Assembly (NCBI GenBank): GCA_001820055.1
Contig: MHOK01000005.1
Coordinates: forward strand, 7,371-71,370
Source of the DNA: Candidatus Spechtbacteria bacterium RIFCSPLOWO2_12_FULL_38_22
GTDB lineage: Bacteria > Patescibacteriota > Minisyncoccia > Spechtbacterales > 2-12-FULL-38-22
Length of the DNA stretch: 64,000 nt
Direction of reading: 5' to 3'
The notes below the pieces were generated by a model, which saw nothing but the letters and a program-made list of their open reading frames with translations, searched no databases and was not told the DNA's origin. The translations under genes and the position numbers were made by a program. Below, piece by piece: positions 40,592 through 55,396 of the stretch (position 1 is its first letter; every line of letters starts with the position of its first letter).

Positions 40592-43021
40592 TTGTTAGGG
40601 GAAAACTTCTTGAGCAAACGTGCTCTTCTATTGTATAATAAATCTATAACTAGTATGGATTTTTATAGAAAACTCCGCAAATTTTTTATTACAAAAAATC
40701 TGCATATGTCGCAGAGTATTCTTAGTATTTCGCTGTCCATAAGATACTCAAAATACTTCCTCACAGCTATCGTTTTTGTAGTATTTGGGGGATTTTTCTT
40801 TTCAGCGCAACCAACAGACGCGTTCGGATTTTTAGCGTGGTTCGGTGTTGGTTTATTAGCGGATATACTTACTGGTGGACACGTCTTAAGTGCCGTAGCA
40901 GCACCCTTCTTCGAAGCCTTAATGAAGATATTGACCGAATTTATATTTCCAATTGTTGAAGCTGTCATAACCTCAATATTATCCTTCATAAACTTCTTAC
41001 TCACTGGAATTGTATATGTGGCAAAAACCATAATGGAGTTTGCTTTAAACTTTTCCCTTACCGCTCCTTACACAGACACAAGCCAAGGAGTTATAAAAGC
41101 CGCATGGCCGATATTTAGAGATTTGGCAAATATGGGACTTATTCTAGTACTAGTAGCTATCGGCATCGGGACAATACTTAACCTAAAGACAAACCGCAAC
41201 CAATTGATGCCCTTTATTATAATCGCGTTTCTAATTAACTTTACTCCGATGCTTACGGGCATCGTTATAGATTTAAGTAACTTAACCGCACGTATCTTTT
41301 TTGACGCGGCGCAAAATGCCTCAAACGCGTTTCTAGCTGGGAATCCATTTTCAGGTTCAATGGACAGACTTGGGGGAAGCATACCACTAATAGGTAGAGG
41401 AATATCAGGAGATGCGTTCGGAGCAACAGATTTTTCTGGCATCTCAATTTTTGCCATAATGACTACCATATTTTTACTTGTCCTAATTTTTGCGTACTTA
41501 CTGCTAGGCGCGCTATTTTTGGGTAGAACTTTGGCGCTTTGGTTGCTTGTTATATTTTCTCCTATAGCGTTTGTGGCTTATATACTTCCCTCGACCAGAA
41601 AAGTTTTTGATAACTGGTGGAACAACTTTTTAAAATGGTCCCTCATCGCAATACCCCTTATATTCTCTTTGTGGCTAGCGGGTATATTTTTACATAACAC
41701 AAGTGTTGGTTGTCAGGCGATATCTCAAAGTGCGATAGAACAAAATATTGGCGAAAACTTAGAGGAAAACGACGGAACAATAACAGGAGAGTCGTCGTTA
41801 GCAGGAGATGACTACGCAACCATACTTTATCCTGTAACCGCCGCGCAAACCAATACCGGCACAAATATGATTTGCGGAATTACATCTATGATATTTGCTC
41901 TTGGGACGCTATTTGTTGGCATATCTATGAGCTTAAAAAGTTCTGCCACAGGGGCGAACATTATAATATCGCGCGCTAAAAAACTGAAAGATGCGATGAT
42001 GAAAAAAGCTTCAAAGTGGGCAGGCACTGAAGCTGAAAAAAGGGGAAGACAACTTACGGCAAGACCGCTTTCAAAAGCGGGGCAGGGCTTGGCAGATTCT
42101 CGCCTTGGGCGCAGCGCTCTAGGGTCACCACTTCGCAACCTCGGGCTTGCGATGCAACGCCCTGCTGTAAAATGGGCTCAACAATATAAAGAGCACGAAA
42201 AGAAATTCCAAGGCATGAGCTGGGAACAAATGAAAGGAATGTTGTTTGAACGCACAGACAAAGGGTCTGCTGCGTGGGCATACGCCGCTAAAAACCACGC
42301 CGGAGATTTAAGAAAAACCTTAGATGATCCAAAAACTGGAGGTGGCCTAAGAAAAGTTATGAAAGCAAAGATGAAAAAAGCTAATTTACGAGGCGATGAC
42401 TCTATGAAAGAGGTAGAAAAAATTGATCCAAAAACCGCAGCAGAAACAAAACATGCCGGTATCAGTGATGAAGGAAAACGACTAGATGCTATAAAAAATG
42501 AAATACATAAGATAGTAGAAAAGCTAGATGACAAAGCGGTCGCAAACCTATCTAATTCGTCTCTGGGAGATACTAGAGTTGTAAAAGCGCTAGAGGAACA
42601 AGGCAAGTTAACTAAGGGTGCCATTGAAAATCTGGCAAAAGAAGAAACACGACTTGCAACGCTGGACACCATTCTGCAAGAAAACTACAAAAAAGAATTG
42701 GTCAAAGAATTAAAGAAAATGACATCAGAAGAAAGAATAAAAACATTTGGATCAGTTGGATCACTTATAGCGAGAGGGGGGGATTTATCACCCGAAGCAT
42801 ACAAAAAATTCCTATCAAGTCCTGAAAACTATAAAAAAATGTTGCGATACAAAAAGGATAAAAGTGGGGGGCGTGTTAGCCCGTACTTGGAAACCATAGA
42901 GGCTCACCCTTATGCGGCGGCGTTTCACTTCACAACCAAAGAATCTGTCCGGGAAGGACTAACAAAAAAAGATTTCGAGACTTTTAGAAAAGAAATGACC
43001 TCAAAGGAAGATAAAAAATAA
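40592..43021 (+). CDS. VirB6/TrbL-like polytopic membrane protein with long hydrophilic C-terminal domain
   Basis: ~8-10 TM helices in the first ~400 aa. Charged Lys/Ala-rich ~400-aa C-terminal extension. Position at the head of the VirB3/VirB4 cluster. True start may be 40655 or 40706. Confidence 0.45.
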   Translation: MLGENFLSKRALLLYNKSITSMDFYRKLRKFFITKNLHMSQSILSISLSIRYSKYFLTAIVFVVFGGFFFSAQPTDAFGFLAWFGVGLLADILTGGHVLSAVAAPFFEALMKILTEFIFPIVEAVITSILSFINFLLTGIVYVAKTIMEFALNFSLTAPYTDTSQGVIKAAWPIFRDLANMGLILVLVAIGIGTILNLKTNRNQLMPFIIIAFLINFTPMLTGIVIDLSNLTARIFFDAAQNASNAFLAGNPFSGSMDRLGGSIPLIGRGISGDAFGATDFSGISIFAIMTTIFLLVLIFAYLLLGALFLGRTLALWLLVIFSPIAFVAYILPSTRKVFDNWWNNFLKWSLIAIPLIFSLWLAGIFLHNTSVGCQAISQSAIEQNIGENLEENDGTITGESSLAGDDYATILYPVTAAQTNTGTNMICGITSMIFALGTLFVGISMSLKSSATGANIIISRAKKLKDAMMKKASKWAGTEAEKRGRQLTARPLSKAGQGLADSRLGRSALGSPLRNLGLAMQRPAVKWAQQYKEHEKKFQGMSWEQMKGMLFERTDKGSAAWAYAAKNHAGDLRKTLDDPKTGGGLRKVMKAKMKKANLRGDDSMKEVEKIDPKTAAETKHAGISDEGKRLDAIKNEIHKIVEKLDDKAVANLSNSSLGDTRVVKALEEQGKLTKGAIENLAKEETRLATLDTILQENYKKELVKELKKMTSEERIKTFGSVGSLIARGGDLSPEAYKKFLSSPENYKKMLRYKKDKSGGRVSPYLETIEAHPYAAAFHFTTKESVREGLTKKDFETFRKEMTSKEDKK

Positions 43022-43634: not shown

Positions 43635-43695
43635 TATTACTAGATTGCAGAAGTACCAAATTACTAGATTACAAAATTACTAAATTACCAGATTT
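43635..43695 (+). repeat. Upstream repeat module (family U), 5' of the VirB3-like gene
   Basis: ATTACTAGATTGCAGAAGTACCAAATTACTAGATTACAAAATTACTAAATTACCAGATTTG. Confidence 0.5.
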
Positions 43696-43717
43696 GTTAT
43701 CTTGTTATTTAATTATA

Positions 43718-44119
43718 ATGCAATATTCAACTCCACAATTTATAGACAGGGAACAAAAGCTGCTGGGGCCACTAACTGTACACCAAACAGTTATTCTTGG
43801 TTTAACTACTGTGTTTTTGGTAATATCCTATTTTATATTTAATTTCTTTTTGTTTAGCGTGTTACTCGTAATTCTTGGAGGCACGAGTATCTCAATATCT
43901 TTTATTAAAATAAACGACAGACCAGTATACCAGTTTGTAACTTCTTTTTTTGGATATTTTTTAAAACCCCGCATATACATATGGCAAGGAGAATCTCAAA
44001 ATCCTGTTGCGCAACCTCAAACCACGCAAAAGACACAACAAGAAACTGAGCCTCAAAAGAGATCTCCCCAAATTACAAAAAAAGAACTAGAAGAACTGAC
44101 AGAATTTCTTAACAAATAA
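43718..44119 (+). CDS. VirB3-like small membrane protein
   Basis: Two adjacent TM helices near the N-terminus. Immediately upstream of VirB4. The ORF track starts at TTG 43694. Confidence 0.3.
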   Translation: MQYSTPQFIDREQKLLGPLTVHQTVILGLTTVFLVISYFIFNFFLFSVLLVILGGTSISISFIKINDRPVYQFVTSFFGYFLKPRIYIWQGESQNPVAQPQTTQKTQQETEPQKRSPQITKKELEELTEFLNK

Positions 44120-44120
44120 T

Positions 44121-44771
44121 ATGGCACAACCCTCAACTCAACAATTTATACCGATAGATAATATAAGAGATGATGTGGTTATTTTAAAAGGCGGGCAAAT
44201 GCGCGCTGTTTTACAAGTATCCAGCATAAACTTGGCCCTAAAATCGCAAGACGAACAGGACGCAATAATTCAAAGTTACGGAGCGTTTCTTAATTCTCTA
44301 GAATTCCCGATACAGATACTCGCAAATTCCCGCTATATGAACCTAGACGAATATCTTAAAAACCTCAACGACATGATAGAGAAACAGCCATCCGAACTGA
44401 TGCAGATACAAACCCAAGAATATATAAATTTTATACAAGAATTCTTGTCACAAGACTATGTAGTATCTACAAACTTTTACGTTACGGTGCCCTTCAGTCT
44501 GGTTGATATAGATATTCAAAAGGGCGGTGCGCAAGAAAGATTTAAAGCCTTACTTGGAAAACAAAGCGAACTATCCTATATAGACCCCAAAGAATTTGTA
44601 TCTTACAGGAACCAACTAGTGCAGAGGGTTGAATTTATAGCAAGCGGTTTGCACAGAATGGGACTTGTTATAGATATGCTAAACACCGAACAGTTAATAT
44701 CCTTGTTTTGGAGCTTGTACAATCCCGAGGACTTAAAAAAAAGGTCTTTAGTAAAATCATTATTTGAATAA
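44121..44771 (+). CDS. VirB4/TrbE-family protein, N-terminal domain encoded as a separate ORF
   Basis: IPIDNIRDDVVILKGGQMRAVLQVSSINLALKSQDEQDAI... resembles the VirB4 N-terminal domain. Stop TAA overlaps the next ORF's start (TAATATG). Confidence 0.55.
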   Translation: MAQPSTQQFIPIDNIRDDVVILKGGQMRAVLQVSSINLALKSQDEQDAIIQSYGAFLNSLEFPIQILANSRYMNLDEYLKNLNDMIEKQPSELMQIQTQEYINFIQEFLSQDYVVSTNFYVTVPFSLVDIDIQKGGAQERFKALLGKQSELSYIDPKEFVSYRNQLVQRVEFIASGLHRMGLVIDMLNTEQLISLFWSLYNPEDLKKRSLVKSLFE

Positions 44772-46542
44772 TATGAAGCAGCTTGACGCACAACAAATCA
44801 ACCAGAAAGAACTTGAGCAAGAAAAAAAAAGGCGTTTAATAAATGTCCTGGCACCTCCGGTGGTAGAAATTGAAGCAGATTTTATAAAATTAGGTGGAGT
44901 ATTTGTTCGTACATTATTTATATCAAGTTACCCTAGATTTCTTTCACAAAACTGGATCAGTCCAATTATAAATTTGGACGAAACTGTTGATGTGTCCATA
45001 TTTATACAACCGATACCAACAGAATCTGTGCTTAAAAAACTGGAAAGCCAACTGACCGGCGTGGAAGCAGATATGATGGAGCGAGAAAAAAAGGGGCTGA
45101 TTCGCGACCCATTGCTTGAAGCGGCGTATACAAATATAGAAGATTTGAGAGATAAAATGCAAACCTCAGAAGAGAGGGTATTTAAGTTTGGGTTATATTT
45201 AATGCTTTACGGAAAAACAAAAGAAGCGCTTGAAGATGTTGAAAATAAAATTAAATCCCTACTGGAAAGTAGATTGATATACGCAAAACCCGTTGTATAC
45301 AAACAAGAACAGGGAATCGTGGGTGGACTACCTCTGGGTATAGACAACCTTAAATTAAACACGAGCCTAAACACATCATCGCTTTCTGCGTCTTTCCCTT
45401 TTGTTTCTTTTGACTTATCGGACAACAAGGGCATTCTTTATGGAATTAACCGACACAATTCAAGCCTAATACTATTTGACCGTTTCTCCTTAGAAAACGC
45501 AAATACTGTGGTTTTAGGAAAAAGTGGGGGGGGTAAAAGTTATGCTGTAAAATTAGAGATTCTGCGCTCTTTAATGCTTGGCATAGACAATATTGTAATA
45601 GATCCAGAAAATGAGTATAAATATCTTGCGGAAGCGACAGGAGGCAGTTTTTTTCATATATCGCTTACAAGCGGGGACCATATAAACCCTTTTGATATAC
45701 CCCAACCCCAACCAGACGATAAACCTCAAGAGGTTTATCGGGCTAATGTAATAACCTTAATGGGACTACTCAAACTTATGCTGGGCTCTATGACCCCAGA
45801 AGAAGAAAGCGTTTTAAATGAAGCAATAGACCAAACTTATGCCTCATACGATATTACAGCGGACACAGAGAGTTTCTGGAAAAAATCTCCACCCCTAATG
45901 AGAGACCTCCAGGCCGTGCTAGAAAGCATGCAAGGGGGAGAAGCGCTTGGACAACGGTTAGAAAAATATACGAAAGGCATCTATTCAGGATTTTTAAACG
46001 AAAGAACAAACGTAGAGCTAAACGACCAGCTGGTTGTTTTAAGCATAAGGGATATGGAAGAGGAACTGCGCCCAATAGCCATGTATATAATAATTGACTA
46101 TATCTGGGGAGCTATACGGCGGGAGCTTAAAAAAAGAATTTTAACAATAGACGAGGCTTGGTGGATGCTACAACAAAAAGAAAGTGCCTCGTTTTTGTTT
46201 GGAATTGCAAAACGAGCTCGTAAATACTTTTTGGGGTTAACAACTATCTCCCAAGATATAGCAGATTTTTTAAGCAGTGACTACGGCCGCGCTATTATTG
46301 CAAATTCTTCACTTCAAATTTTAATGAAGCAGTCTCCAACCACAATAGACCAAGTGCAAGAAGTATTTAATTTGACAGATGAAGAAAAACTACTGTTACT
46401 GGAGGACAATGTGGGCGAGGGTTTGTTTTTTGCGGGAACCAAGCATGTCGCCATAAAAATAATGTCCTCCTACATAGAAGACCAAATAATAACATCCGAC
46501 CCAGAGCAACTGCTTGAAATAAAAAGAATGAAAGAAAATTAA
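44764..46542 (+). CDS. VirB4/TrbE-family T4SS ATPase, C-terminal ATPase domain
   Basis: Walker A VVLGKSGGGKSY. DPENEY motif. Walker B ILTIDEAWWML. Probable ATG start at 44773. Confidence 0.85.
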   Translation: MNNMKQLDAQQINQKELEQEKKRRLINVLAPPVVEIEADFIKLGGVFVRTLFISSYPRFLSQNWISPIINLDETVDVSIFIQPIPTESVLKKLESQLTGVEADMMEREKKGLIRDPLLEAAYTNIEDLRDKMQTSEERVFKFGLYLMLYGKTKEALEDVENKIKSLLESRLIYAKPVVYKQEQGIVGGLPLGIDNLKLNTSLNTSSLSASFPFVSFDLSDNKGILYGINRHNSSLILFDRFSLENANTVVLGKSGGGKSYAVKLEILRSLMLGIDNIVIDPENEYKYLAEATGGSFFHISLTSGDHINPFDIPQPQPDDKPQEVYRANVITLMGLLKLMLGSMTPEEESVLNEAIDQTYASYDITADTESFWKKSPPLMRDLQAVLESMQGGEALGQRLEKYTKGIYSGFLNERTNVELNDQLVVLSIRDMEEELRPIAMYIIIDYIWGAIRRELKKRILTIDEAWWMLQQKESASFLFGIAKRARKYFLGLTTISQDIADFLSSDYGRAIIANSSLQILMKQSPTTIDQVQEVFNLTDEEKLLLLEDNVGEGLFFAGTKHVAIKIMSSYIEDQIITSDPEQLLEIKRMKEN

Positions 46543-46543
46543 T

Positions 46544-46897
46544 ATGGCTTTGCTCCACAAGAAATTAAAAAAGCGTATAGAAAAAGAATCTGTGTGGGGA
46601 GATAACTTCTTAATATTATTCTGGGCTATATTTATAGACATTATAGGATTTATTTCCGGATTATTGGGATTTCTTATTGTTCCTATAATATTTTCTAACA
46701 TTCTAAGTTCCATAGCCGGTATTCCTATTTTTGTTTGGGGTTATAAAAAATATAAAAAACGCGGAGGCTTTGGTGTTTGGAAATACATAAAACAAGTCTG
46801 GAGGACATCTCTAGCAGAAACGCTTGTAAGCCCGGGACCATGGTTAACTTTATTCGTAAGAAAAACAATACGAGGTAAAAAAATATTTAAATTCTAA
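46544..46897 (+). CDS. Small membrane protein in the T4SS-like cluster
   Basis: 117 aa. Basic N-terminus and 2-3 TM helices. Confidence 0.35.
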   Translation: MALLHKKLKKRIEKESVWGDNFLILFWAIFIDIIGFISGLLGFLIVPIIFSNILSSIAGIPIFVWGYKKYKKRGGFGVWKYIKQVWRTSLAETLVSPGPWLTLFVRKTIRGKKIFKF

Positions 46898-46898
46898 A

Positions 46899-48122
46899 AT
46901 GCTAAACTTCACAAAAAAGTCCACAAGCATTCTTGCGCTCTTCATACTAGTTTTTGGCGGTTGGGGTATAAACGCAAACACGCATGACACACGAGAAGCT
47001 GATATAATATATACTCCGCCATCCGAAGCAACTACCACAGCGGGAGAACCCATAGAACTGGGACCTATAAAATGCAACGTTAACTGGCCACGAATTCCTA
47101 TTCCGGGCGGAACTTTTGACCTAAACGAGTACTGCCAACCGGGCGCTTCAATAAGTATCGGCACCGTGATTGCCGCAATATATGCAACAGCACTCTGGCT
47201 TGGCGGTTTAATCGCATTTGGCGCTTTGTTTTATTCAGGGTTTTTATATATATTTTCTGGAAATGTTCCGGCAAATCGGTCTAAAGCGCGGGGTATGCTA
47301 GTTAATGTAGCATGGGGCATGGGAATACTACTACTTTCCTGGGTAACGCTCAGGTTGATAAATCCAGATATAACTAACCTAAAATTCCAAGAACCTCAAA
47401 AAACTAGAGTATGTCTGGACGCCAATCAGATAAACTGCATACCGGTGCCGGGTTTTATAGGAAGAGTCTCCTATAGCCCATACAATGCCGGAGATCCCTT
47501 GGAATCGGCTAGATGTATCGGGACAGGAGATGTGCGAGTGGGAGACTCCACTCTAAACAGTCTGGCAAATATTATGTGTGAAAGCGAAGAACTACTTAGA
47601 AAAGACGCCCATTCTTACCTAATACAGGCTGTCGGAAATTCAAATTGTTCTCAAGAGGATGTGGATGCGCTGTTGTTAAAAACAGAAACACTATGTCCTG
47701 CGAACCAGCCCGGAGATGAAGCGCTGGGAATAACCGGGGACACTGTGTCAACTGGTTTATGCTACTGGCAAGGACAATACGGTGGGGGAGCAGGAATATC
47801 TTTTGGAGCAAGCGGAGCTGTATATTTTCCGAATGACTATCTAGGCGATGCAGCTGATGATTTTTTGGAAATTGCTAACCTAGACATAATTGATGCTACG
47901 TCTCCCAGTGCCGAATTCGTTAATGCTATTCAAAAAAACCTTGACGCTGTTTTTGACTATTGTTCAAACGAAGATTCTAACCCCAACATCTGCATACTAC
48001 TGGACGAAGACGAATCCAACATCGCTGACCTAAACCCAGCACGAAGGGAGGCGCTACGTTGTTTCTGCACCAGGGACATATTACCATCCAAGTGGAACCC
48101 ATCTTTCCCTGAATGCAACTAA
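46899..48122 (+). CDS. Exported protein: VirB2/TrbC-like two-helix module fused to a Cys-rich ectodomain
   Basis: Signal peptide. Residues ~67-165 read IPGGTFDLNEYC...GGLIAFGALFYSGFLYIFSGNVPANRSKARGMLVNVAWGMGILLLSWVTLRLINPD, paralogous to the 23820 and 48132 proteins. C-terminal ~240 aa has 14 Cys. Confidence 0.45.
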   Translation: MLNFTKKSTSILALFILVFGGWGINANTHDTREADIIYTPPSEATTTAGEPIELGPIKCNVNWPRIPIPGGTFDLNEYCQPGASISIGTVIAAIYATALWLGGLIAFGALFYSGFLYIFSGNVPANRSKARGMLVNVAWGMGILLLSWVTLRLINPDITNLKFQEPQKTRVCLDANQINCIPVPGFIGRVSYSPYNAGDPLESARCIGTGDVRVGDSTLNSLANIMCESEELLRKDAHSYLIQAVGNSNCSQEDVDALLLKTETLCPANQPGDEALGITGDTVSTGLCYWQGQYGGGAGISFGASGAVYFPNDYLGDAADDFLEIANLDIIDATSPSAEFVNAIQKNLDAVFDYCSNEDSNPNICILLDEDESNIADLNPARREALRCFCTRDILPSKWNPSFPECN

Positions 48123-48131
48123 ACACCCTTT

Positions 48132-49715
48132 ATGATTATTAAAAATAAAAAATACATAATACTGGGCTTATCTATTTTGGTACTATTGCCTACTACCTTT
48201 GTATACGCCGCAGAGTCCCCAAACATAATCTTTAATACGAACTTCCCAGCAATTCCCGCTCCAGTACCAGGAGGGTTTTTTGATTTAAATTGCATAGAAG
48301 GATTAAACTCTAATCTGTGTAGTAGCAACTTTGAATATGCTCCAACTATTGGAAACATAATTTTATTTATATTTACCGCCGCGATATGGATCGGCGGACT
48401 TGTCGCATTTGGGGTTTTATTCTACGGCGGGTTTTTATATATATTTTCTGGAAACGCTCCGGCTAATCGATCTAAAGCGCGAGGCATGTTGGTTAATGTA
48501 GCATGGGGAATTGGGATTTTACTCCTTTCTGTTGTATTTTTAAACTTAATAAACCCTGATGTTGCTAACTTGCGTTTTGAGAACCCCGAAGCCATCCAAA
48601 CTTGTCCCGACGGCACAACTGATTGTATAACCTACCCAGAATTGCCAAAACAATACAACACATTTGGATGTAGTTGGAACGAACAGGAAGACAAGTGCGA
48701 AATAGCCCAAGATACCGTAGCGTGTACACTTGGGTTTAAAACCTCTGGTGTGTGTGAAAAAGTTAATGGACTTCATAACCAAAATAGCTTACTTGATAAC
48801 GAAAAGGTTTGTAAAAGCTTAAAATCAAATGCTTGCGCGCTAAGTTCTGAGGGCGAAGACGCAGTTGGCAATGTTGGTTCCTATGTAGCATGTCTTGGAA
48901 CTTGCCTGTCACAAGGAAAATTAGAGGCAACATGCCAAAACGAGTGTTCTGTTTATACAGGAGGGGGCAGCGGATACTCTTGCCGGGAAAGATGCCAGGA
49001 AACCCTTCCTCCACAACTAGCGCATGAGTGTTCAGAGCTTCCGTCATGCTTAGAAACTCCCCCCGGAGTTACACCTGCAGCTGACGGATATTTTAAACTA
49101 CCCGCTTCAAATTTTTATACCAAAAGATACGAAGACGCATCGTGTGGCAAATTAGAACTAATACAAGCAATATATGTTGTGGCAAAAAGATGGTCAGAAA
49201 TAGGGGGGTCTAAAATGAATGTAACGGATTTAAACGGGGGAGGAGATTACAACTCCGGAGTTTGCCACTCAACCCATAATAGAGGCATCGACGTTGATAT
49301 TCATATTGAAGGTGTAACGCTGCACAAAACAGCAAATTCTGGAGAGTGGCTAATTAAACTGGGTAAACTACTAGTGGACACCGGGGTCGTGTCAGGATTC
49401 ATACACAGAACTGATGCTCCCCAGGATGCCGCAGCTTTAGAAGTTGTTAATAGATACTTTGAGAATAAATTCCCAAATCGAAACCCCTGGCACCCACCAT
49501 GGGCTCTAAATGAGGGGTTCTGGAGGACGGATACTGCAGGTAATCACGAAGATCATATGCACATACATATTGGCGACTCAGACGGAGCAACGGGGACAGG
49601 AATTCAACCTGGACCATACAATAGGTCTTGTAGTAGGGATACAACCTTAAGATATTATTCGAGCTCCGATTATTGTTGCTATAGAACAGATGGAGGGCAA
49701 CAAAAGTGTGGTTAG
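48132..49715 (+). CDS. Exported protein: VirB2/TrbC-like module, Cys-rich region, C-terminal LAS/M15-like zinc peptidase domain
   Basis: Residues ~40-145 are paralogous to the 46899 protein (FSGNAPANRSKARGMLVNVAWGIGILLLS). Residues ~375-482 read CHSTHNRGIDVDIH ... NHEDHMHIH, fitting SxHxxGxxxD plus HxH of Hedgehog/DD-peptidase-fold (M15) enzymes. Confidence 0.5.
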   Translation: MIIKNKKYIILGLSILVLLPTTFVYAAESPNIIFNTNFPAIPAPVPGGFFDLNCIEGLNSNLCSSNFEYAPTIGNIILFIFTAAIWIGGLVAFGVLFYGGFLYIFSGNAPANRSKARGMLVNVAWGIGILLLSVVFLNLINPDVANLRFENPEAIQTCPDGTTDCITYPELPKQYNTFGCSWNEQEDKCEIAQDTVACTLGFKTSGVCEKVNGLHNQNSLLDNEKVCKSLKSNACALSSEGEDAVGNVGSYVACLGTCLSQGKLEATCQNECSVYTGGGSGYSCRERCQETLPPQLAHECSELPSCLETPPGVTPAADGYFKLPASNFYTKRYEDASCGKLELIQAIYVVAKRWSEIGGSKMNVTDLNGGGDYNSGVCHSTHNRGIDVDIHIEGVTLHKTANSGEWLIKLGKLLVDTGVVSGFIHRTDAPQDAAALEVVNRYFENKFPNRNPWHPPWALNEGFWRTDTAGNHEDHMHIHIGDSDGATGTGIQPGPYNRSCSRDTTLRYYSSSDYCCYRTDGGQQKCG

Positions 49716-49740: not shown

Positions 49741-50394
49741 ATGAAGCATAATCTGAAAACTTTATTAGCCTTTGGCGGCTTACTGCTGGGTTTAACTTTG
49801 ATATTTGTATTTATAAATAGGTTATGGGATGTACAAGATCCAGAAACTTTTGTAATAAAGAGAACAGACCAAACAACAACGCAATGGGATAGAATTTTAC
49901 AACAAAAAGACACAGAGAACGCAAAGATTATAACTAATGTATACGACGGCTACGAAATAACAATTCCAAAAAATTGGCTAGCTCCCCAAAAAAGTCCCTC
50001 TGCCCTACGTCTATATTCATACGAACAGCTACAATACCGTACAGAAAAAAATCTATTAGAAAATATAGAAAAATGGCCCCCACTAGAACACGAGATGCCG
50101 ATATTCAGTATAGATATCTTAGAAAAAATAGAAAAAACCCCTCTAGATGTTTGGCTAAACACCTCGCCCTTTGTAACAAACGTCCTCCCTGGTGAATTAA
50201 TTTTTAAAAAAATAAAAATAAACACTTTGGAAGCCTTGAAAGCTATACAACAAACATATGAAGAAGACGGTAGCCTAGGACTTATGCAAAGTGTCTTTGT
50301 TGTGTCTGGTAAGAATAGAGTTTACATCTTAACCTGCGCCGACGACTTACAAAAATGTGAAAACGCGATAAAAACCTTTAAAATCCTCGAATAA
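49741..50394 (+). CDS. Bitopic membrane protein, possibly VirB8-like
   Basis: 217 aa. N-terminal TM plus ~190-aa extracytoplasmic domain, the VirB8/PrgL topology and size. No motif-level support. Confidence 0.25.
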   Translation: MKHNLKTLLAFGGLLLGLTLIFVFINRLWDVQDPETFVIKRTDQTTTQWDRILQQKDTENAKIITNVYDGYEITIPKNWLAPQKSPSALRLYSYEQLQYRTEKNLLENIEKWPPLEHEMPIFSIDILEKIEKTPLDVWLNTSPFVTNVLPGELIFKKIKINTLEALKAIQQTYEEDGSLGLMQSVFVVSGKNRVYILTCADDLQKCENAIKTFKILE

Positions 50395-50406: not shown

Positions 50407-50456
50407 ATCAACAAATAAACGTTTCAAACCTGGTTTGAAACGTTTATTTGTTGATT
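50407..50456. terminator. Palindromic hairpin (family H copy 2) between convergent genes
   Basis: AATCAACAAATAAACGTTTCAAACC-T-GGTTTGAAACGTTTATTTGTTGATT. Shares AAATAAACGTTTCAA arms with 8758-8803. Confidence 0.6.
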
Positions 50457-50457
50457 T

Positions 50458-51903
50458 TTAATCCAGTTGCTGATCGGTTTTGGAGAGTAAGTTTGAAGGT
50501 AATATCTTATGAAGTCTAAGTAAATAAGAAGATGCTATAAATATCCCAACACCAAACACGAATACCCGCATGAACCGGTTAGCACCAAGAGGTGTTTGTA
50601 TGTCCGCTATAGCGTAAAACACAAACCCCCCAACAACAGTAGCAACTAACACCGCCCGAAACAACACAGAAAACGAGATACTAAATTTAGTCTTCGTTCT
50701 TACAATATAAACTATGTAAATAAACACTAGTAATTCGGTGGCAACCGTGGTCCACGAAGCTCCCAAATAAGAATACTTAGGTATAAAAATTAAATTAGCG
50801 ACAAAATTAAAAATAAATCCGGCTACGTAAGCCCACATTGCTTTTTTTTGTAAATCCAAAGCTACCACGCTGTTGCCAAAAAGGGTAGCTAAAAATATTA
50901 TACCTGTTGCAATAAATAATATCTGAAGTGGCAAACCAGAGGGTAAAAACTCTGTTCCCCCTATAAAATTTACTATTGAATAAGAGAGTAAAACCCCACA
51001 AACCACCGCCGTCAATGTTACTGTAAATATCAACTCCACTAAACGGGAAAGTAAATGAGAAAACTTTTCTTTATTTTCTTTCGCATAACGTGAAAGAATA
51101 GGGAGCAAAAGACCAACAAAAGCTGCTGGAAAAAATATCAAAACCTCCAAAATCTTATAGGCTACGTTGTATGTTCCTACTTCTTCCTGCGTTTTTATGA
51201 TAGATAAAAGAAGTGTGTCTGATTTAAAATATAGAAGTGTAAAAATAATAGAAATAGCAATCGGATAGGTGGTTTTTATAATTCTTCGCCACTCTAAATT
51301 TCTAAAAGTTACCTTAAACGGAACTAAACGACGAACAAACACCAAGTCAACTACAAATATAACAAACACCCCCGCAAGTACAGCGCTTAGATAGTGAAAC
51401 AGTCCGCCCCCCCTGACAAAAAAGAACCATACAAAACCCAACTGAACAACCCGGCCCAAAACTTCAGCGAACGCCGCTTTATAAACTTGTAAATATTTCT
51501 GAAAAACTCCCAAAAAAAGCTGTGTTAAAGAAAGCATAACAAATGCGGAAGATGCAAAAACTATTCCTAGTTTAAGCTCGCGTGAATACGGAAACAAAAA
51601 TACCAACACGCTCGCCAAGGCCATAAAAAATACGGCCACAATAAGCCGTAGCGTAAAGAACTGTCCCACCAACTGTTTTTCCTGTTCAGGTTTTTGAGAT
51701 ATCTCTTTGGTCAATAAAGAATACAACCCCAAGTCCGCTAAAATTTGAAAAGTAGACAAATAAGCAACGCCTGTTGCGTATTGCCCAAATCCAAAAACAC
51801 CAAGGGAGCGGGTAATGAAACCCAAAATCACGAGCGAAATGCCCCCGCCAAGAACCTTGCCTAACGAAGAAGCAATGGTATTAAGTGTTATTTTCCTCAA
51901 CAT
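50458..51903 (-). CDS. MOP-superfamily flippase (MurJ/Wzx-like)
   Basis: 481 aa. 12-14 TM helices. N-terminal region resembles polysaccharide-biosynthesis/MurJ proteins. Confidence 0.55.
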   Translation of the reverse strand: MLRKITLNTIASSLGKVLGGGISLVILGFITRSLGVFGFGQYATGVAYLSTFQILADLGLYSLLTKEISQKPEQEKQLVGQFFTLRLIVAVFFMALASVLVFLFPYSRELKLGIVFASSAFVMLSLTQLFLGVFQKYLQVYKAAFAEVLGRVVQLGFVWFFFVRGGGLFHYLSAVLAGVFVIFVVDLVFVRRLVPFKVTFRNLEWRRIIKTTYPIAISIIFTLLYFKSDTLLLSIIKTQEEVGTYNVAYKILEVLIFFPAAFVGLLLPILSRYAKENKEKFSHLLSRLVELIFTVTLTAVVCGVLLSYSIVNFIGGTEFLPSGLPLQILFIATGIIFLATLFGNSVVALDLQKKAMWAYVAGFIFNFVANLIFIPKYSYLGASWTTVATELLVFIYIVYIVRTKTKFSISFSVLFRAVLVATVVGGFVFYAIADIQTPLGANRFMRVFVFGVGIFIASSYLLRLHKILPSNLLSKTDQQLD

Positions 51904-52364
51904 TATTTTTTAAGCTTAACGACGATTCTGCGCTCGCGCCCCTCGCCCGTACTTTCAGTTTCCACGTCGCTAAATTCTGAAAGCGCGCTGTGTACTATGC
52001 GTCTATCAAAAGCGGTCATGGCCTCCATTTCTATATCTTTATCTTCTCTCAACGCTCGAGTGCGAGTAAAGTGCGCCATATCTTTTAAAAGCTCCGCGCG
52101 CTTTCTCTTGTACCCGTTAATATCCAGATCCATCACAACTTCATCCCCATGCTTTTTTCTGACCATCAAACGAACTAAGTGTTGTAGCGCGTTTAGATTC
52201 TTGCCTTTTTCTCCTATCAGCTGGCGAGGCTCATCAACAAAAACGTCCACAAAAAATCTGCCATCTTCTTCAATAACCTCCGGCGCTTGCAAAGAAATAT
52301 ATCCAGTTTTCTCCAACAACTCTTGAACGTCTCTTTTTAAATCCAACGCTATTTTAGATTTCAT
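51903..52364 (-). CDS. jag: Jag/KhpB-like RNA-binding protein (KH + R3H)
   Basis: KH-like (IGEKGKNLNALQHLVRLMV) and R3H (DRRIVHSAL) motifs. Downstream of yidC as in the conserved yidC-jag pair. Confidence 0.8.
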   Translation of the reverse strand: MKSKIALDLKRDVQELLEKTGYISLQAPEVIEEDGRFFVDVFVDEPRQLIGEKGKNLNALQHLVRLMVRKKHGDEVVMDLDINGYKRKRAELLKDMAHFTRTRALREDKDIEMEAMTAFDRRIVHSALSEFSDVETESTGEGRERRIVVKLKK

Positions 52365-53080
52365 GTTGTTATTTTATTTAAAGATTTGTTAATAAAAAGC
52401 TGTTGAGCAAAAGAAAACACGGTAGTTACAAACCAGTAAAGAACGAGCCCCGCAGGAAAACTCTGCGCAATAAAAAAAGTAACCAGAGGCAAAACATATA
52501 TCATCTGTTTACCCATCATTCCTTGTAGCCCAGAATTTCCGCTTGTCCCTATTTTTTTCCTTTGGCTGAAAGTGATGCGCGATACCATAAATTGAGAAAA
52601 CGCGGCAAGAAACGCCAACACCATGGAAACTTCTGTCAAAGGAACTAAACCAAGAAAATTAGTGTTTATACCGGAAGGAGCACCGACGAAAGAGTATAAC
52701 CCGTTTAAAGTTTCGGGCGTAAGTTGTATCGAAAATACCTTATACAAACCTATAATAATTGGCAGTTGTATTAAAAATGGCAGACATCCAGCAAAAGGAT
52801 TAATATTATTTTTCTTATAAAACTCCATGACAGCTTGCGACTGTTTTTGGCGGTCGTCTTTAAATTCCTTCTGAATTTCTTTCAACTGTGGTTGTAGCTG
52901 CGACATCTTTTTTTGAGAAGAAAGCGCCTTATGAGACAAAGGGAAAAGTATAAGGCGCGTTATAACAGTAACAGCTACAATCGCCCAACCCAAACTATGC
53001 CCGGGTAAATAATCCACGATAAAAATCAAAAGATTAAGTATGGGCCTAAATATTATTTCATTAAAAATTGTTAGTAACAT
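52361..53080 (-). CDS. yidC: Membrane protein insertase YidC (short form)
   Basis: 239 aa. Conserved YidC/Oxa1 core (LFPLS...QLQPQLKEIQKEFKDD...FAGCLPFLIQLPI). Confidence 0.85.
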   Translation of the reverse strand: MLLTIFNEIIFRPILNLLIFIVDYLPGHSLGWAIVAVTVITRLILFPLSHKALSSQKKMSQLQPQLKEIQKEFKDDRQKQSQAVMEFYKKNNINPFAGCLPFLIQLPIIIGLYKVFSIQLTPETLNGLYSFVGAPSGINTNFLGLVPLTEVSMVLAFLAAFSQFMVSRITFSQRKKIGTSGNSGLQGMMGKQMIYVLPLVTFFIAQSFPAGLVLYWFVTTVFSFAQQLFINKSLNKITT

Positions 53081-53087
53081 AATTAAA

Positions 53088-53357
53088 TTAATGGCATTTT
53101 TTTAACTGCGCAAACCCCGCTTTTAAGCCATGAAGCGCTCCGCGCTCCTTAATCGCTATTTTTGTGTACTGTGAACATGTCGGGCGGAACTTGCACTGCC
53201 CTACTGTAAAAAAACTTACAACACCGTGGTCTGGCGACAGCGTCCATTGATAAACTGTTATTAAACCTAAAAATAAAAAACTGGGAGTTCTTTTGGCCCA
53301 GCTATTGGTCAGTCTATTTTTAAAACATATTGGTTTTTTTAAATAGTTGTATTGCAT
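53088..53357 (-). CDS. yidD: Membrane protein insertion efficiency factor YidD
   Basis: YQWTLSP...CKFRPTCSQY motif. 5' end overlaps rnpA, so the true start is probably internal. Confidence 0.78.
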   Translation of the reverse strand: MQYNYLKKPICFKNRLTNSWAKRTPSFLFLGLITVYQWTLSPDHGVVSFFTVGQCKFRPTCSQYTKIAIKERGALHGLKAGFAQLKKCH

Positions 53358-53655
53358 CTTCTCTTAAATCTTCAAATTTCCTATTTTTAATGTCTTCATT
53401 ACCTATAATTATAATGTCAAACCCTAAATTTAAATTCCCAATAGCCTCACGAGCCACATGGCGCAAAACTCTTTTGTAATAGTTCTTTTTAACAGAGGTT
53501 TTTGCAATCTTCTTGCTAACAGCGACACCGACTTTTATAATTCCAAAATTATTTTTGATAATTCTTACATAAAAAAATCTCCCTCTGTATACACGACCCT
53601 TGGCAAGTGTGTATTCAAATTCTTTCGTGTTTAATCTGTGTTTTTTAGAGAACAT
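53320..53655 (-). CDS. rnpA: RNase P protein component
   Basis: 111 aa. Basic. RNR-like motif region (KKNYYKRVLRHVARE). Position between rpmH and yidD. Confidence 0.85.
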   Translation of the reverse strand: MFSKKHRLNTKEFEYTLAKGRVYRGRFFYVRIIKNNFGIIKVGVAVSKKIAKTSVKKNYYKRVLRHVAREAIGNLNLGFDIIIIGNEDIKNRKFEDLREDAIQLFKKTNMF

Positions 53656-53658
53656 ATA

Positions 53659-53802
53659 TTAAACCGCCAAACGTTTTCGTCCTTTGCTCCTGCGACGCGA
53701 CAAAACTCTACGCCCATTCTTTGTGGCGGCCCTCTTTAGAAATCCATGGGTTCTTTTTCTTCTACTTTTGCTTGGATTATATGTTTGTGCTTTTGTCGTC
53801 AT
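53659..53802 (-). CDS. rpmH: 50S ribosomal protein L34
   Basis: Manual translation of the minus strand: [47 protein letters not shown] (47 aa). Below the ORF-track length cutoff. Confidence 0.85.
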
Positions 53803-54040
53803 ATTTATAACTTTACCACTTTAATGAACTGTTTTCAAGTTAGGAAAGTGATTCCACACACACTCCACAACTTATACCCAAAATTCGTAAAAAATCAAGA
53901 TTTACAACATGGTATGTGCTCGTGGTAGAATGGAATAGAATTAATCGCCCACACTTAGTTATCGTATCCGCCAACTACAGACTGCGACAAAAAACTAAAC
54001 GTAGTCCATAGACACCTTGTGGGTGGTGGCAAATAAAATT
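53803..54040. promoter_or_regulatory. Candidate oriC / dnaA promoter region with DnaA-box-like 9-mers
   Basis: GATTCCACA, ACTCCACAA, TGTGGGTGG. Classical rpmH-dnaA position. Confidence 0.35.
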
Positions 54041-55396
54041 ATGAATGAGTATGATTTGTGGCAAGTCGTTTTAACTGAAATAGAACCTCAAATATCAAAA
54101 GCTAATTTTGTTACTTGGTTTAAAAACACTTATATATCTTCCAAAAAAGATGGGGTTGTTTCTGTTGCAGTACCTAATGCGTTCAGCAGAGAATGGTTAG
54201 AAAATAAATATACCAAACCAATAATGAGATCGTTGAGAAACACATCAAGAGACATTAGAGAGATTCGCTATATAATAGAAAACAAAAAACCTACGATTAT
54301 TACGGCCCAAAATCAAACAGTAGAAAAAAGGGACATTGAGGAAACACAGTTACAGTTTGAAGAGTTACAAATAGATAGTGTAACCAATCTTAACCCAAAA
54401 TACTCCTTTGACAACTTCGTTGTAGGCTCCTCCAACGAGTTGGCGCATGCCGCAGCCATCTCAATAACAAAAAAACCCGGAGCATTGTATAACCCACTAT
54501 TCATATACGGGGGGGTGGGACTAGGAAAAACACACCTGCTTCAAGCGATAGGAAATACTTTTGCCCAAACCAGAAAAAAAGTTCTTTACATAACGTCCGA
54601 ACGCTTTACAAGCGAGTTTATAACCTCTATATCCAACCAAACAATAGATAGTTTTAAAAATAAATATAGAAACAAGGATGTTTTAATAATAGACGATATA
54701 CAGTTTATAGCTGGCAAAGAGCAGACCCAAGAAGAGTTCTTCCACACATTCAACACCCTACATGAAACAAACAAACAAATAATTCTTAGCTCCGACAGAA
54801 CCCCACGGTCCATACCAACCCTAGAAGAAAGGTTGCGATCCAGGTTCGAGGGTGGGATGTTGGTAGACATAGGATACCCAAACTATGAGATGCGGGTAGC
54901 TATTTTAAAAACGAAGGTTAAAAGTAAAAATATCTTTTTATCCGAGGAGGTTATTAACTACATAGCAAACAATATACAAAAAAACGTACGAGAATTGGAG
55001 GGTGCCCTTAATTTGGTCATCGCCTCCTCAAAACTCAACAACAACGAGACGAACCTAGAACAGGCTAAAAAAATACTATCTCACATAACCAGCAAACCAA
55101 ACAAGCCGATTAGTTACAAAAAAATATTTAAGACAGTTTCTGATTTCTATGAGATAGAGGAAAAGTCTCTTTTGGGCAAAAATAGAAAAAGAGAAATTGT
55201 TTTACCCAGACAAATTGCTATGTTTTTAATGCGGTCTGAACTAAAAGCCTCTTACCCGTTTATAGGAGAAAGGTTTGGTGGCAAAGACCACACAACAGTC
55301 ATGTATGCTTGTGCAAAAATAGAAAAAGAAGTAAACACTAATCACAATTTAGAACAAGAAATAGGACTGATAAAACAACAAATATATAGTGACTAA
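54017..55396 (+). CDS. dnaA: Chromosomal replication initiator DnaA
   Basis: AAA+ Walker A GGVGLGKTHLL. Sensor motifs. C-terminal DNA-binding domain. Likely true start at 54041 (MNEYDLWQ). Confidence 0.9.
   Translation: MWVVANKIMNEYDLWQVVLTEIEPQISKANFVTWFKNTYISSKKDGVVSVAVPNAFSREWLENKYTKPIMRSLRNTSRDIREIRYIIENKKPTIITAQNQTVEKRDIEETQLQFEELQIDSVTNLNPKYSFDNFVVGSSNELAHAAAISITKKPGALYNPLFIYGGVGLGKTHLLQAIGNTFAQTRKKVLYITSERFTSEFITSISNQTIDSFKNKYRNKDVLIIDDIQFIAGKEQTQEEFFHTFNTLHETNKQIILSSDRTPRSIPTLEERLRSRFEGGMLVDIGYPNYEMRVAILKTKVKSKNIFLSEEVINYIANNIQKNVRELEGALNLVIASSKLNNNETNLEQAKKILSHITSKPNKPISYKKIFKTVSDFYEIEEKSLLGKNRKREIVLPRQIAMFLMRSELKASYPFIGERFGGKDHTTVMYACAKIEKEVNTNHNLEQEIGLIKQQIYSD

What the first reader, a model, noticed from the sequence alone, without database searches (positions are those of the whole stretch)
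46899..49715. Paralogous exported proteins: VirB2/TrbC-like two-helix module fused to Cys-rich ectodomains, one ending in an M15/LAS peptidoglycan peptidase domain
Both proteins share a ~100-aa module (Cys pair, TM1, FSGNxPANRSKARGMLVNVAWGxGILLLS, TM2) followed by unrelated Cys-rich C-terminal domains of 240-380 aa. The second ends with SxHxxGxxxD...HxH motifs of LAS/M15 zinc peptidases. This could be a pilus/tip-adhesin family in which a cell-wall hydrolase is physically fused to the pilin-like anchor (functional analogue of VirB1/PrgK). No such fusion has been described.
Basis: partly seen in the sequence, partly recalled or inferred. Interest (0 to 1): 0.78.

Follow-up and report, generated by a model that had tools for sequence, protein, structure and literature searches.

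The report
Secretion-system pilins fused to wall-cutting enzymes
Two neighbouring genes of an uncultured ultra-small bacterium (Candidatus Spechtbacteria) encode type IV secretion pilin-like membrane hairpins that carry large cysteine-rich outer domains, one of them a MepA-type zinc enzyme that cuts bacterial cell wall; this suggests how these host-dependent bacteria get a secretion machine or pilus through a cell wall.

Summary
ORFs 46899..48122 (p1, 407 aa) and 48132..49715 (p2, 527 aa) share a ~110-aa module (BLASTP E 4e-43). In both, the module scores above the gathering threshold of Pfam PF18895 (T4SS_pilin, the VirB2-like pilin of Patescibacteria). They lie directly downstream of PrgI/VirB3-like, TrsD-like and VirB4 genes, about 4 kb from dnaA.

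The fusion recurs. The seven closest relatives of the domain all carry the pilin hairpin. Other loci hold pilin+M23, and one protein combines SLT_3, M23, pilin and M74. A relative's syntenic slot has M23 instead of M74.

The C-terminal domain of p1 remains unidentified.

Most likely function (inferred): a pilin-anchored or pilus-borne peptidoglycan endopeptidase of the T4SS, a functional analogue of VirB1/PrgK. Whether it cuts its own wall or the host's wall is unresolved.

Pilin arrays in Patescibacteria are published. I found no description of pilin-hydrolase fusions. This is a new variant of a known kind.

The parts
46899..48122 (+). p1: 407-aa pilin-module protein with a Cys-rich C-terminal ectodomain of unknown fold
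   Evidence: ORF. Identical to P0007, a hypothetical protein of Candidatus Spechtbacteria RIFCSPLOWO2_12_FULL. Its orthologue P0004 is 44% identical over the full length.
46899..46976 (+). p1 putative Sec signal peptide (about residues 1-26)
   Evidence: Basic n-region (TKKS), then a hydrophobic helix at residues 6-24 in the model. The cleavage site is inferred, not predicted by a tool.
47154..47345 (+). p1 T4SS_pilin (PF18895) match, residues 86-149: TM1, basic loop, TM2
   Evidence: Pfam 30.5 bits against a cut-off of 26.6. Helices 87-119 and 124-154 in the model. Hydropathy.
47391..48119 (+). p1 C-terminal Cys-rich domain (residues 165-407, 12 Cys), function unknown
   Evidence: No Pfam, PDB-sequence or PHROG match. 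AF2 model pLDDT 46. Conserved in P0004.
48132..49715 (+). p2: 527-aa pilin-module protein ending in a MepA-like (M74) LAS peptidase domain
   Evidence: ORF. The exact protein is on at least 24 metagenome contigs.
48132..48209 (+). p2 putative Sec signal peptide (about residues 1-26, ...FVYA|AE)
   Evidence: Hydrophobic segment 7-28 and helix 6-27. The cleavage site is inferred.
48345..48551 (+). p2 T4SS_pilin (PF18895) match, residues 72-140: TM1, loop, TM2
48447..48488 (+). p2 basic inter-helix loop SGNAPANRSKARGM (residues 106-119), predicted cytoplasmic
   Evidence: Sequence. The topology follows from the positive-inside rule (inference).
48552..49049 (+). p2 Cys-rich linker region (residues 141-306, 16 Cys), including the conserved junction motif INPDVANL and an FGCSWNEQEDKCE beta-hairpin
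   Evidence: Low-confidence part of the model, with strands 178-183 and 188-194. Motif recurrence.
49050..49631 (+). p2 MepA-like (peptidase M74, LAS) domain, residues 307-500
49266..49298 (+). Zinc/catalytic motif 1: H379-STH382-NRGIDV-D389
   Evidence: H379, H382, G385 and D389 are invariant in 65 sequences. Aligned to GHASHQTGLDVDI of MepA.
49545..49562 (+). Zinc/catalytic motif 2: H472-ED-H475-M-H477
   Evidence: H472 is invariant; H475 and H477 are nearly invariant. Aligned to HRAHMH of MepA.
44764..46542 (+). VirB4-type T4SS ATPase
   Evidence: Pfam P-loop_TraG 1.2e-28, AAA_10, DUF87.
44121..44771 (+). TrsD/TraC-like T4SS protein
   Evidence: NCBIfam TrsD 4.9e-8 and VirB4_plasma N-terminal region 2.1e-11, both below the curated cut-offs. 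The orthologue in L006 carries PF26593 TraC-like.
43694..44119 (+). PrgI/VirB3-like membrane protein
   Evidence: Pfam PrgI 6.4e-5, 23.9 bits against a cut-off of 27. The orthologue in L006 is annotated PF12666.
40592..43021 (+). 809-aa polytopic membrane protein, candidate extended VirB6 (not confirmed)
   Evidence: At least 7 hydrophobic segments in the first 450 residues, then a hydrophilic tail. No Pfam or NCBIfam hit. Assigned by position only.
46544..46897 (+). 117-aa small membrane protein between virB4 and p1, conserved in synteny
   Evidence: Hydropathy. A gene of similar size holds the same position in L001-L004 (117 aa), L006 and L013 (110 aa); L015 has a 163-aa ORF there. No family hit.
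49741..50394 (+). 217-aa membrane-anchored protein, last gene of the operon, weak PsbP_2 similarity
   Evidence: Pfam PsbP_2 E 0.017. A homologue follows the pilin-M23 gene in L008 (E 1e-10). A PsbP_2-like protein follows virB4 in L014.
50408..50454 (.). 20-bp perfect hairpin followed by a T-run: terminator between the convergent operon end and the polysaccharide-synthesis gene
23820..24239 (+). Stand-alone short T4SS_pilin (139 aa), candidate major pilin
   Evidence: Pfam PF18895 39.9 bits. Sequence; hydropathy.

Best explanation
p1 and p2 belong to the VirB2-like pilin array of a chromosomal, Gram-positive-type (MPF-FATA-like) type IV secretion system of a Patescibacterium (Candidatus Spechtbacteria). 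Unlike ordinary pilins, each carries a large disulfide-rich C-terminal ectodomain. Proposed mechanism, with shown and inferred steps marked. (1) The proteins are exported by Sec and the signal peptide is removed (inferred). (2) The two-helix pilin hairpin sits in the membrane with the basic loop in the cytoplasm and both ends outside, so the C-terminal domain is extracellular (topology inferred from sequence; hairpin shown by Pfam and the model). (3) The hairpin is the element that the T4SS (VirB4, PrgI/VirB3, VirB6-like) recognises. It therefore docks the protein at the machine or lets it enter the pilus as a minor or terminal subunit, with the short 139-aa pilin at 23820..24239 as the likely bulk subunit (inferred). 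(4) The C-terminal domain of p2 is a MepA-type LAS zinc endopeptidase with all six active-site His/Asp residues (shown at sequence and fold level). It cleaves peptide cross-links of peptidoglycan exactly where the channel or pilus must cross a wall (activity inferred). This gives the system the local wall-opening function that VirB1, PrgK or TraG provide elsewhere. In sister loci the same role is taken by pilin-M23 and probably pilin-lysozyme-like fusions. The ectodomain of p1 has an unknown function in the same setting, either binding or another enzyme. Whether the wall being cut is the bacterium's own, the host's, or both is not resolved.
Confidence: 0.6

Rival explanations
1. Host-directed weapon. 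The extended pilins are polymerised onto or at the tip of a T4SS pilus, and their enzymes (M74, M23, lysozyme-like) digest the host bacterium's peptidoglycan at the contact site. This opens the host envelope for nutrient or macromolecule exchange. The variable C-terminal domains reflect adaptation to different host wall chemistries.
For: The C-terminal catalytic domain is swapped at the syntenic slot between related genomes: M74 in the window, M23 in L008, an unknown domain in L006. Arrays of two or three long pilin proteins with diverse ectodomains follow virB4. Patescibacteria are obligate epibionts, and their T4SS and pilin array are essential for growth on the host (PMC10633639; PMC12857230). 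T4SS pilins are among the most highly expressed genes of unknown function in parasitic Patescibacteria (PMC10936435). If the hairpin does assemble like VirB2, the C-terminus points outward from the fibre (knowledge of F and T pilus structures).
Against: No cognate immunity gene covaries with the domain. The gene downstream of the M74 version and the gene downstream of the M23 version are homologues (27% identity, E 1e-10). The N-terminal regions are as diverged as the rest of the protein (46% identity), unlike typical polymorphic toxins. No pilus has been observed. The host of Spechtbacteria is unknown.
Confidence: 0.25
2. Housekeeping wall enzyme with a convenient anchor. The hairpin is merely a two-TM membrane anchor, and p2 is an ordinary growth or division endopeptidase, like MepA, that happens to be encoded next to the T4SS genes.
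For: MepA in E. coli is a housekeeping murein endopeptidase (PMC3927764). Some pilin-M74 loci lie near FtsW and YceG rather than virB4 (L005). 53 of the 64 relatives of the domain do not score as PF18895 and combine it with other wall-related domains.
Against: The anchor is a specific family that scores above the Pfam threshold and is otherwise known only from T4SS pilins (PMC12102498). The closest relatives of the domain all have it. The genes sit in a tight operon with VirB4 in the window and in four other genomes. Two different hydrolase classes are fused to the same hairpin.
Confidence: 0.1
3. Non-catalytic LAS domain. The C-terminus of p2 binds peptidoglycan or another ligand and acts as an adhesin or wall tether for the T4SS, in the way hedgehog N-domains keep the LAS fold while acting as ligands.
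Against: All six residues equivalent to the MepA zinc-binding and catalytic set are retained, and they are invariant or nearly so across the family. This argues for selection on catalysis.
Confidence: 0.05

Closest known systems
VirB2-like pilins of Patescibacteria T4SS (Pfam PF18895 T4SS_pilin; pilin arrays of Southlakia epibionticum SEML1_0014-0019)
   Same: The same Pfam family scores above threshold. Same layout of signal peptide, two hydrophobic helices and a basic loop. Same tandem arrangement near virB4 and prgI, and the same chromosomal position near dnaA (PMC12102498).
   Different: The described pilins are short: 103-185 aa in S. epibionticum and 139 aa for the stand-alone copy here. 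p1 and p2 add ectodomains of 240-380 aa, one of them enzymatic. No paper found in the library mentions such extensions.
E. coli MepA, penicillin-insensitive murein endopeptidase (MEROPS M74, LAS fold; PDB 1TZP/1U10)
   Same: Best sequence-profile and structural match. The H-x-x-H-x6-D and H-x-x-H-x-H motifs are conserved. The expected chemistry is cleavage of D-Ala-mDAP-type cross-links (PMC3927764).
   Different: About 16-19% identity, and p2 alone is below the Pfam gathering score. MepA is a soluble periplasmic protein. Here the domain is the C-terminus of a membrane or pilin protein, preceded by a Cys-rich linker and followed by a conserved Gly-rich and Cys tail.
VirB1 / PrgK / TraG(pIP501) / TcpG: T4SS-dedicated peptidoglycan hydrolases
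   Same: Encoded in the T4SS operon. In monoderms they are membrane-anchored ectoenzymes presumed to open the wall locally for the machine. This is an analogous role.
   Different: A different catalytic class: those enzymes use lytic transglycosylase or lysozyme plus CHAP/NlpC-P60 domains, whereas p2 is a LAS zinc endopeptidase. Their anchor is a plain TM helix rather than a pilin hairpin. p2 is therefore an analogue, not a homologue.
Structural-subunit/hydrolase fusions of other envelope-spanning machines: flagellar FlgJ (rod cap + muramidase), T6SS VgrG3 (spike + lysozyme-like), phage phi29 gp13 (tail tip lysozyme + M23) (from general knowledge, not tested here)
   Same: The same design logic: a subunit that assembles into, or caps, the growing or penetrating structure carries the enzyme that digests the peptidoglycan ahead of it.
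   Different: Unrelated proteins and machines. For T4SS pilins no such fusion has been reported, as far as the searched literature shows.

Membership tests
PF18895 T4SS_pilin (VirB2-like pilins) | Score above the Pfam gathering threshold | tested here: met
   p1 30.5 bits and p2 31.1 bits against a cut-off of 26.6.
PF18895 T4SS_pilin (VirB2-like pilins) | Signal peptide followed by two hydrophobic helices joined by a short basic loop | tested here: met
   Hydropathy. AF2 helices at 73-105 and 110-140 in p2 and at 87-119 and 124-154 in p1. The loop is SGNxPANRSKARGM.
PF18895 T4SS_pilin (VirB2-like pilins) | Encoded with virB4 and virB3-type genes | tested here: met
   Operon PrgI, TrsD-like, VirB4, 117-aa gene, p1, p2. 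Conserved synteny in L001-L004, L006, L013-L015.
PF18895 T4SS_pilin (VirB2-like pilins) | Small protein consisting essentially of the hairpin | tested here: not met
   p1 is 407 aa and p2 is 527 aa. The short copy at 23820..24239 is 139 aa.
PF18895 T4SS_pilin (VirB2-like pilins) | Structural similarity to solved conjugative pilins | tested here: inconclusive
PF18895 T4SS_pilin (VirB2-like pilins) | Polymerises into a T4SS-dependent pilus | not testable with these tools
   Needs microscopy or biochemistry.
Peptidase M74 (MepA) / LAS metallopeptidases | p2 itself reaches the Pfam M74 gathering score | tested here: not met
   18.6 bits against a cut-off of 25, E 1.5e-3, covering only residues 336-393. 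NCBIfam MepA E 0.0056.
Peptidase M74 (MepA) / LAS metallopeptidases | Family-level homology to M74 | tested here: met
   50 of 65 relatives hit PF03411, best E 1.6e-14. The family profile against PDB sequences has MepA 1tzp as top hit, E 3.7e-5.
Peptidase M74 (MepA) / LAS metallopeptidases | H-x(3-6)-D and H-x-H zinc motifs | tested here: met
   H382-x6-D389 and H475-M-H477, plus H379 and H472. These are invariant or nearly invariant and aligned to the MepA motifs. The motif definition is taken from PMC3927764.
Peptidase M74 (MepA) / LAS metallopeptidases | LAS fold | tested here: met
Peptidase M74 (MepA) / LAS metallopeptidases | Zn-dependent cleavage of peptidoglycan cross-links | not testable with these tools
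   Needs an enzyme assay.
VirB1/PrgK-type T4SS hydrolases | Lytic transglycosylase/lysozyme-like and/or CHAP/NlpC-P60 catalytic domain | tested here: not met
   No SLT, lysozyme or CHAP hit in p1 or p2.
VirB1/PrgK-type T4SS hydrolases | Peptidoglycan hydrolase encoded within the T4SS operon | tested here: met
   p2 is two genes downstream of virB4 in the same operon.
Polymorphic toxin/effector systems | Conserved N-terminal carrier with C-terminal domains exchanged between strains | tested here: inconclusive
   A domain swap between M74, M23 and an unknown domain occurs at the syntenic slot. However, the N-terminal regions are only 46% identical, so there is no sharp junction.
Polymorphic toxin/effector systems | Downstream immunity gene that covaries with the toxin domain | tested here: not met
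   The downstream genes of the M74 and M23 versions are homologous (E 1e-10). The downstream gene of the L006 version is unrelated.

The most novel reading that the evidence does not exclude
VirB2-like pilins of Patescibacteria serve as carriers that put cell-wall-degrading enzymes (MepA-like, M23, lysozyme-like) and other ectodomains on a T4SS pilus. The pilus would then be an enzymatically armed drill that digests its way through the host bacterium's peptidoglycan. This would explain both the essentiality of the pilin arrays for epibiotic growth and the scarcity of VirB1 homologues in these genomes.
Probability: 0.2. Interest if true: 0.85.

Novelty: new variant of a known kind. Interest (0 to 1): 0.6.

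Why it matters
The T4SS and its pilin array are essential for the only genetically tractable Patescibacterium, yet their function is described as completely unknown (PMC11665869, PMC12857230). The published survey also found VirB1 homologues poorly associated with virB4 in most Patescibacteria classes (PMC12102498). Here the pilin hairpin is repeatedly fused to peptidoglycan endopeptidases (M74, M23), probably to lysozyme-like domains, and to other variable ectodomains. This gives a concrete, testable idea of what part of the array does: it brings wall-cutting and possibly host-binding activities to the machine or pilus. It also supplies candidate enzymes for biochemical work. It shows that 'pilin arrays' counted by HMM hits hide multi-domain proteins. 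It would add T4SS pilins to the list of envelope-spanning structures whose subunits carry their own wall hydrolase, alongside FlgJ, VgrG3 and phage tail tips.

Tried and rejected
1. A word-indexed search with the p2 C-terminal domain alone found nothing, and the search with alignment A3 added little. The exhaustive HMMER search was needed instead.
2. phmmer of p1 and p2 against PDB sequences gave no hit. Only the family profile reached MepA.
3. A GTDB genome scan with the peptidase alignment found no relative. The metagenome scan gave four loci.
4. The p1 C-terminal domain stayed unidentified. Pfam at E up to 5, a PDB profile search and PHROGs gave nothing meaningful. The AF2 model was too poor (pLDDT 46) to justify a fold search.
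5. I suspected a lytic-transglycosylase domain in the partner pilin fusions L005:3070-4722 and L011:6023-7480, because the motif E-S/A-x-FNPNA...GAWGLFQM recalls the SLT signature. Pfam and a PDB profile search gave no support, so this is kept only as a lead.
6. The immunity-gene idea for the 217-aa downstream protein is not supported.
7. tblastn of p2 against plasmids and phages found no match, so there is no evidence of a mobile-element origin.
8. The afdb50 fold library was unavailable.
9. Gene conversion between p1 and p2 is only weakly suggested. Nucleotide identity is 83% over the loop and TM2, and 66% of third positions are identical there against 36-40% in the flanks.
Full report
**Observation**

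The two ORFs are real and adjacent on the + strand. p1 is 46899..48122 (407 aa) and p2 is 48132..49715 (527 aa). BLASTP of p1 against p2 gives E 4e-43. The similarity is confined to the N-terminal part (p1 60-166 / p2 35-152), including the near-identical stretch FSGNxPANRSKARGMLVNVAWGxGILLLS. The C-terminal regions show no significant similarity. p1 has 14 cysteines and p2 has 24; each has an even number in the region after the second hydrophobic helix. The exact p2 protein is encoded on at least 24 contigs from several groundwater or sediment metagenomes, always in the same gene order. p1 is identical to a hypothetical protein of Candidatus Spechtbacteria RIFCSPLOWO2_12_FULL.

**The shared module**

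Both proteins score above the gathering threshold of Pfam PF18895, T4SS_pilin (30.5 and 31.1 bits against a cut-off of 26.6). This is the family used to detect VirB2-like pilins in Patescibacteria (PMC12102498). In Southlakia epibionticum some members also hit TrbC/VirB2 PF04956 (Table S2 of PMC10633639).

Hydropathy and the AF2 models show three features: an N-terminal signal-like helix, two long hydrophobic helices (p2 73-105 and 110-140), and a basic loop SGNxPANRSKARGM. By the positive-inside rule the loop is cytoplasmic and both ends lie outside the cell. This places the Cys-rich C-terminal domains outside, which fits disulfide bonding (inference).

The module is not a genome-wide generic anchor. 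In the 64-kb window it occurs only in p1, p2 and a short 139-aa stand-alone pilin at 23820..24239 (PF18895, 39.9 bits).

**Genomic context**

The genes form the end of a tightly packed operon:
- an 809-aa polytopic membrane protein, 40592..43021, a candidate extended VirB6 that is unconfirmed
- a 191-aa protein
- a PrgI/VirB3-like protein, 43694..44119
- a TrsD/TraC-like protein, 44121..44771
- VirB4, 44764..46542 (P-loop_TraG 1.2e-28)
- a 117-aa membrane protein
- p1 and p2
- a 217-aa membrane-anchored protein

The operon ends in a 20-bp perfect hairpin terminator at 50408..50454. Just beyond lie jag, yidC, rnpA, dnaA and dnaN. The T4SS is therefore chromosomal and about 4 kb from dnaA, as reported for some Patescibacteria (PMC12102498).

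The same synteny occurs in another Spechtbacteria genome (L006), a Spechtbacterales MAG (L013) and two MAGs labelled Saccharibacteria (L014, L015). Each has two or three long pilin-module proteins (167-682 aa) after virB4.

**The p2 C-terminal domain**

On its own, p2 gives only a sub-threshold hit to Peptidase_M74 (MepA): 18.6 bits against 25, E 1.5e-3. It gives nothing against PDB sequences.

An exhaustive HMMER search with residues 307-527 against 1.84 billion representatives found only 64 relatives, nearly always as a C-terminal domain. Of the 65 sequences, 50 hit Pfam M74 (best E 1.6e-14). The co-occurring domains are wall-related: Glucosaminidase, SLT, M23, LysM and PG_binding.

The family profile finds E. 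coli MepA (1TZP/1U10) as the top PDB hit (E 3.7e-5). Both motif regions align: GHASHQTGLDVDI and HRAHMHVRL. In p2 these correspond to H379, H382, D389, H472, H475 and H477, which are invariant or nearly invariant across the family. From memory of the MepA literature they correspond to H110, H113, D120, H206, H209 and H211. The H-x(3-6)-D plus H-x-H definition of LAS enzymes and the D-Ala-mDAP specificity of MepA are cited from PMC3927764.

The domain is therefore a divergent MepA-type (M74) LAS peptidase with an intact active site.

**Is the fusion a one-off?**

It is not. The seven best hits to the peptidase domain (P0008, P0005, P0009-P0013) all carry the pilin hairpin N-terminal to it. In several of them the hairpin follows an additional N-terminal ectodomain of 160-400 aa. 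In total, 11 of 65 representatives score for PF18895.

Other hydrolase classes are fused to the same hairpin:
- P0002 is pilin + M23. It occupies the slot syntenic to p2, downstream of the p1 orthologue P0004, in a related genome.
- L010 encodes pilin-M74 and pilin-M23, separated by one 203-aa ORF.
- P0049 combines weak SLT_3 and M23 matches, a pilin hairpin and an M74-like domain.

In L005 and L011 the pilin-M74 gene is followed by a second long pilin fusion. Its C-terminus carries an E-S/A-x-FNPNA...GAWGLFQM motif that I recall as the lytic-transglycosylase signature. No tool supported this.

At the p2 slot in L006 the ectodomain is yet another, unidentified, Cys-rich domain (P0006).

**The p1 C-terminal domain**

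Residues 165-407 are conserved in P0004 (44% identity over the full length). They have no Pfam, PDB or PHROG match. The AF2 model is unreliable (pLDDT 46). The function of this domain remains open.

**Mechanism**

The most likely reading (confidence about 0.6) is that these are T4SS pilin-family proteins whose hairpin targets them to the machine or pilus and whose ectodomains work on the cell wall. p2 would cut peptide cross-links where the channel or pilus must pass. That is the job VirB1, PrgK or TraG do in other systems, carried out here by a different enzyme class.

This fits three published points. [quoted passage not shown] In S. epibionticum, lysozyme-like and M15B-like (LAS) proteins are encoded next to virB4, and PMC12102498 reports that peptidase and lysozyme homologues immediately downstream of virB4 are essential for its epibiotic growth. 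Monoderm VirB1 analogues are membrane-anchored.

The shown steps are family membership of the hairpin, operon context, fold and active-site conservation of the peptidase, and recurrence of the fusion. The inferred steps are export and topology, docking or polymerisation, catalytic activity and substrate.

The main rival (about 0.25) is that the enzymes are displayed on a pilus to attack the host's wall. The domain swapping at a fixed slot and the diversity of ectodomains favour it. The absence of a covarying immunity gene and of a sharp N/C junction does not.

Two minor rivals remain. One is a housekeeping endopeptidase with a borrowed anchor (about 0.1). It is supported by loci L005, L010 and L011, which lack virB4 within the flanks. 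The other is a non-catalytic LAS domain (about 0.05). The invariant catalytic residues argue against it.

**Comparison and novelty**

The T4SS type, the VirB2-like pilins, their tandem arrays and their essentiality are known (PMC10633639, PMC12102498, PMC12857230). Those papers treat the pilins as small proteins and do not mention enzymatic extensions. Full-text searches for PF18895/T4SS_pilin, and for Patescibacteria or Saccharibacteria combined with VirB2, pilin and peptidoglycan-hydrolase terms, returned no description of such fusions. tblastn of p2 against plasmids and phages found nothing.

I rate this a new variant of a known kind. It is a pilin family member turned into a carrier of a wall hydrolase, analogous in design to FlgJ, VgrG3 or phage tail-tip hydrolases (general knowledge).

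Interest is 0.6. A T4SS or CPR specialist would find it notable and testable. However, the organism is uncultured, function is inferred, and the surrounding system is already described.

Noticed in passing
window 23820..24239 (+): A third PF18895 pilin gene. It is short (139 aa), stands alone, lies 22 kb from the T4SS operon and is flanked by NUDIX and NYN genes. It is a candidate major pilin. It lacks the INPD junction motif found in the extended pilins.
   Followed up: partly
window 51903..56736: Replication-origin gene set: jag/KhpB-like, yidC, rnpA, dnaA, dnaN. The T4SS operon ends about 4 kb from dnaA. The same arrangement occurs in L006, L013 and L014.
   Followed up: partly
window 47235..47339 versus 48426..48530: The loop and TM2 of p1 and p2 are 83% identical at the DNA level, and 21 of 32 third positions in identical codons match, against 36-40% in the flanks. 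These paralogues resemble each other more here than p1 resembles its orthologue P0004. Possible causes are gene conversion or a shared docking constraint.
   Followed up: partly
window 47355..47378 and 48546..48569; also P0002-P0013, P0049, P0072, L006, L011: A conserved junction motif (L/I)(I/V)NP(D/Q/R)(I/V/L)x(N/T)L(E/D/K) sits immediately after TM2 in most pilins that carry a C-terminal extension. It is absent from the short pilin and from P0075, whose hairpin is C-terminal. It could be a processing or packing site.
   Followed up: no
window 48651..48713 (p2 residues 174-194); P0002, P0006, P0008, P0010, P0012, L010: A recurrent mini-module G-x-F-x-C-x-W-x(3-8)-C, modelled as a beta-hairpin, occurs in the Cys-rich regions flanking the pilin hairpin. 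It lies on either side of the hairpin in different proteins.
   Followed up: no
window 49566..49631 (p2 residues 479-500): The motif IGDxDGATGTGIxPGPxNxSC directly follows the HxH motif. It is conserved in most of the closest pilin-fused members of the M74-like family (absent in P0013) and absent from MepA. Its function is unknown.
   Followed up: no
L005:3070-4722, L011:6023-7480, P0049: Partner pilin fusions next to pilin-M74 genes carry the motif E-S/A-x-FNPNA...GAWGLFQM, which resembles the SLT lytic-transglycosylase signature. P0049 combines weak SLT_3 and M23 matches with a pilin hairpin and an M74-like domain. The tools gave no significant SLT hit for L005 or L011.
   Followed up: partly
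window 49741..50394; L008:1986-2438; L014:4523-5542: A membrane-anchored protein with weak PsbP_2 (PF18933) similarity recurs in these T4SS loci. It is homologous between the M74-bearing and M23-bearing loci (E 1e-10), so it is probably a system component rather than an immunity protein.
   Followed up: partly
L005:51-734, L010:990-1685, L011:2801-3484: In a more distant lineage, the pair of pilin-hydrolase genes is preceded by a gene of about 230 aa with two MS_channel_1st_1 (PF05552) helices. No virB4 lies within the available flanks.
   Followed up: no
window 36206..37363 (-): A LysM (two copies) + Peptidase_M23 protein lies 3 kb upstream of the T4SS operon on the opposite strand. It is an alternative candidate for a T4SS-associated or a division hydrolase.
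   Followed up: no
P0071, P0073, P0074 (variants of p2): Shorter variants of p2 (87-91% identical, 103-221 aa) exist in the source data. P0073 has an internal deletion that removes most of TM1. They may be assembly fragments or strain-level disruption.
   Followed up: no
window 22025..22750 (-); L011:10381-10860: An IS200-like Y1 transposase homologue lies near the short pilin gene. A LAGLIDADG endonuclease ORF lies in an ORF-poor stretch of L011, probably an rRNA intron.
   Followed up: no
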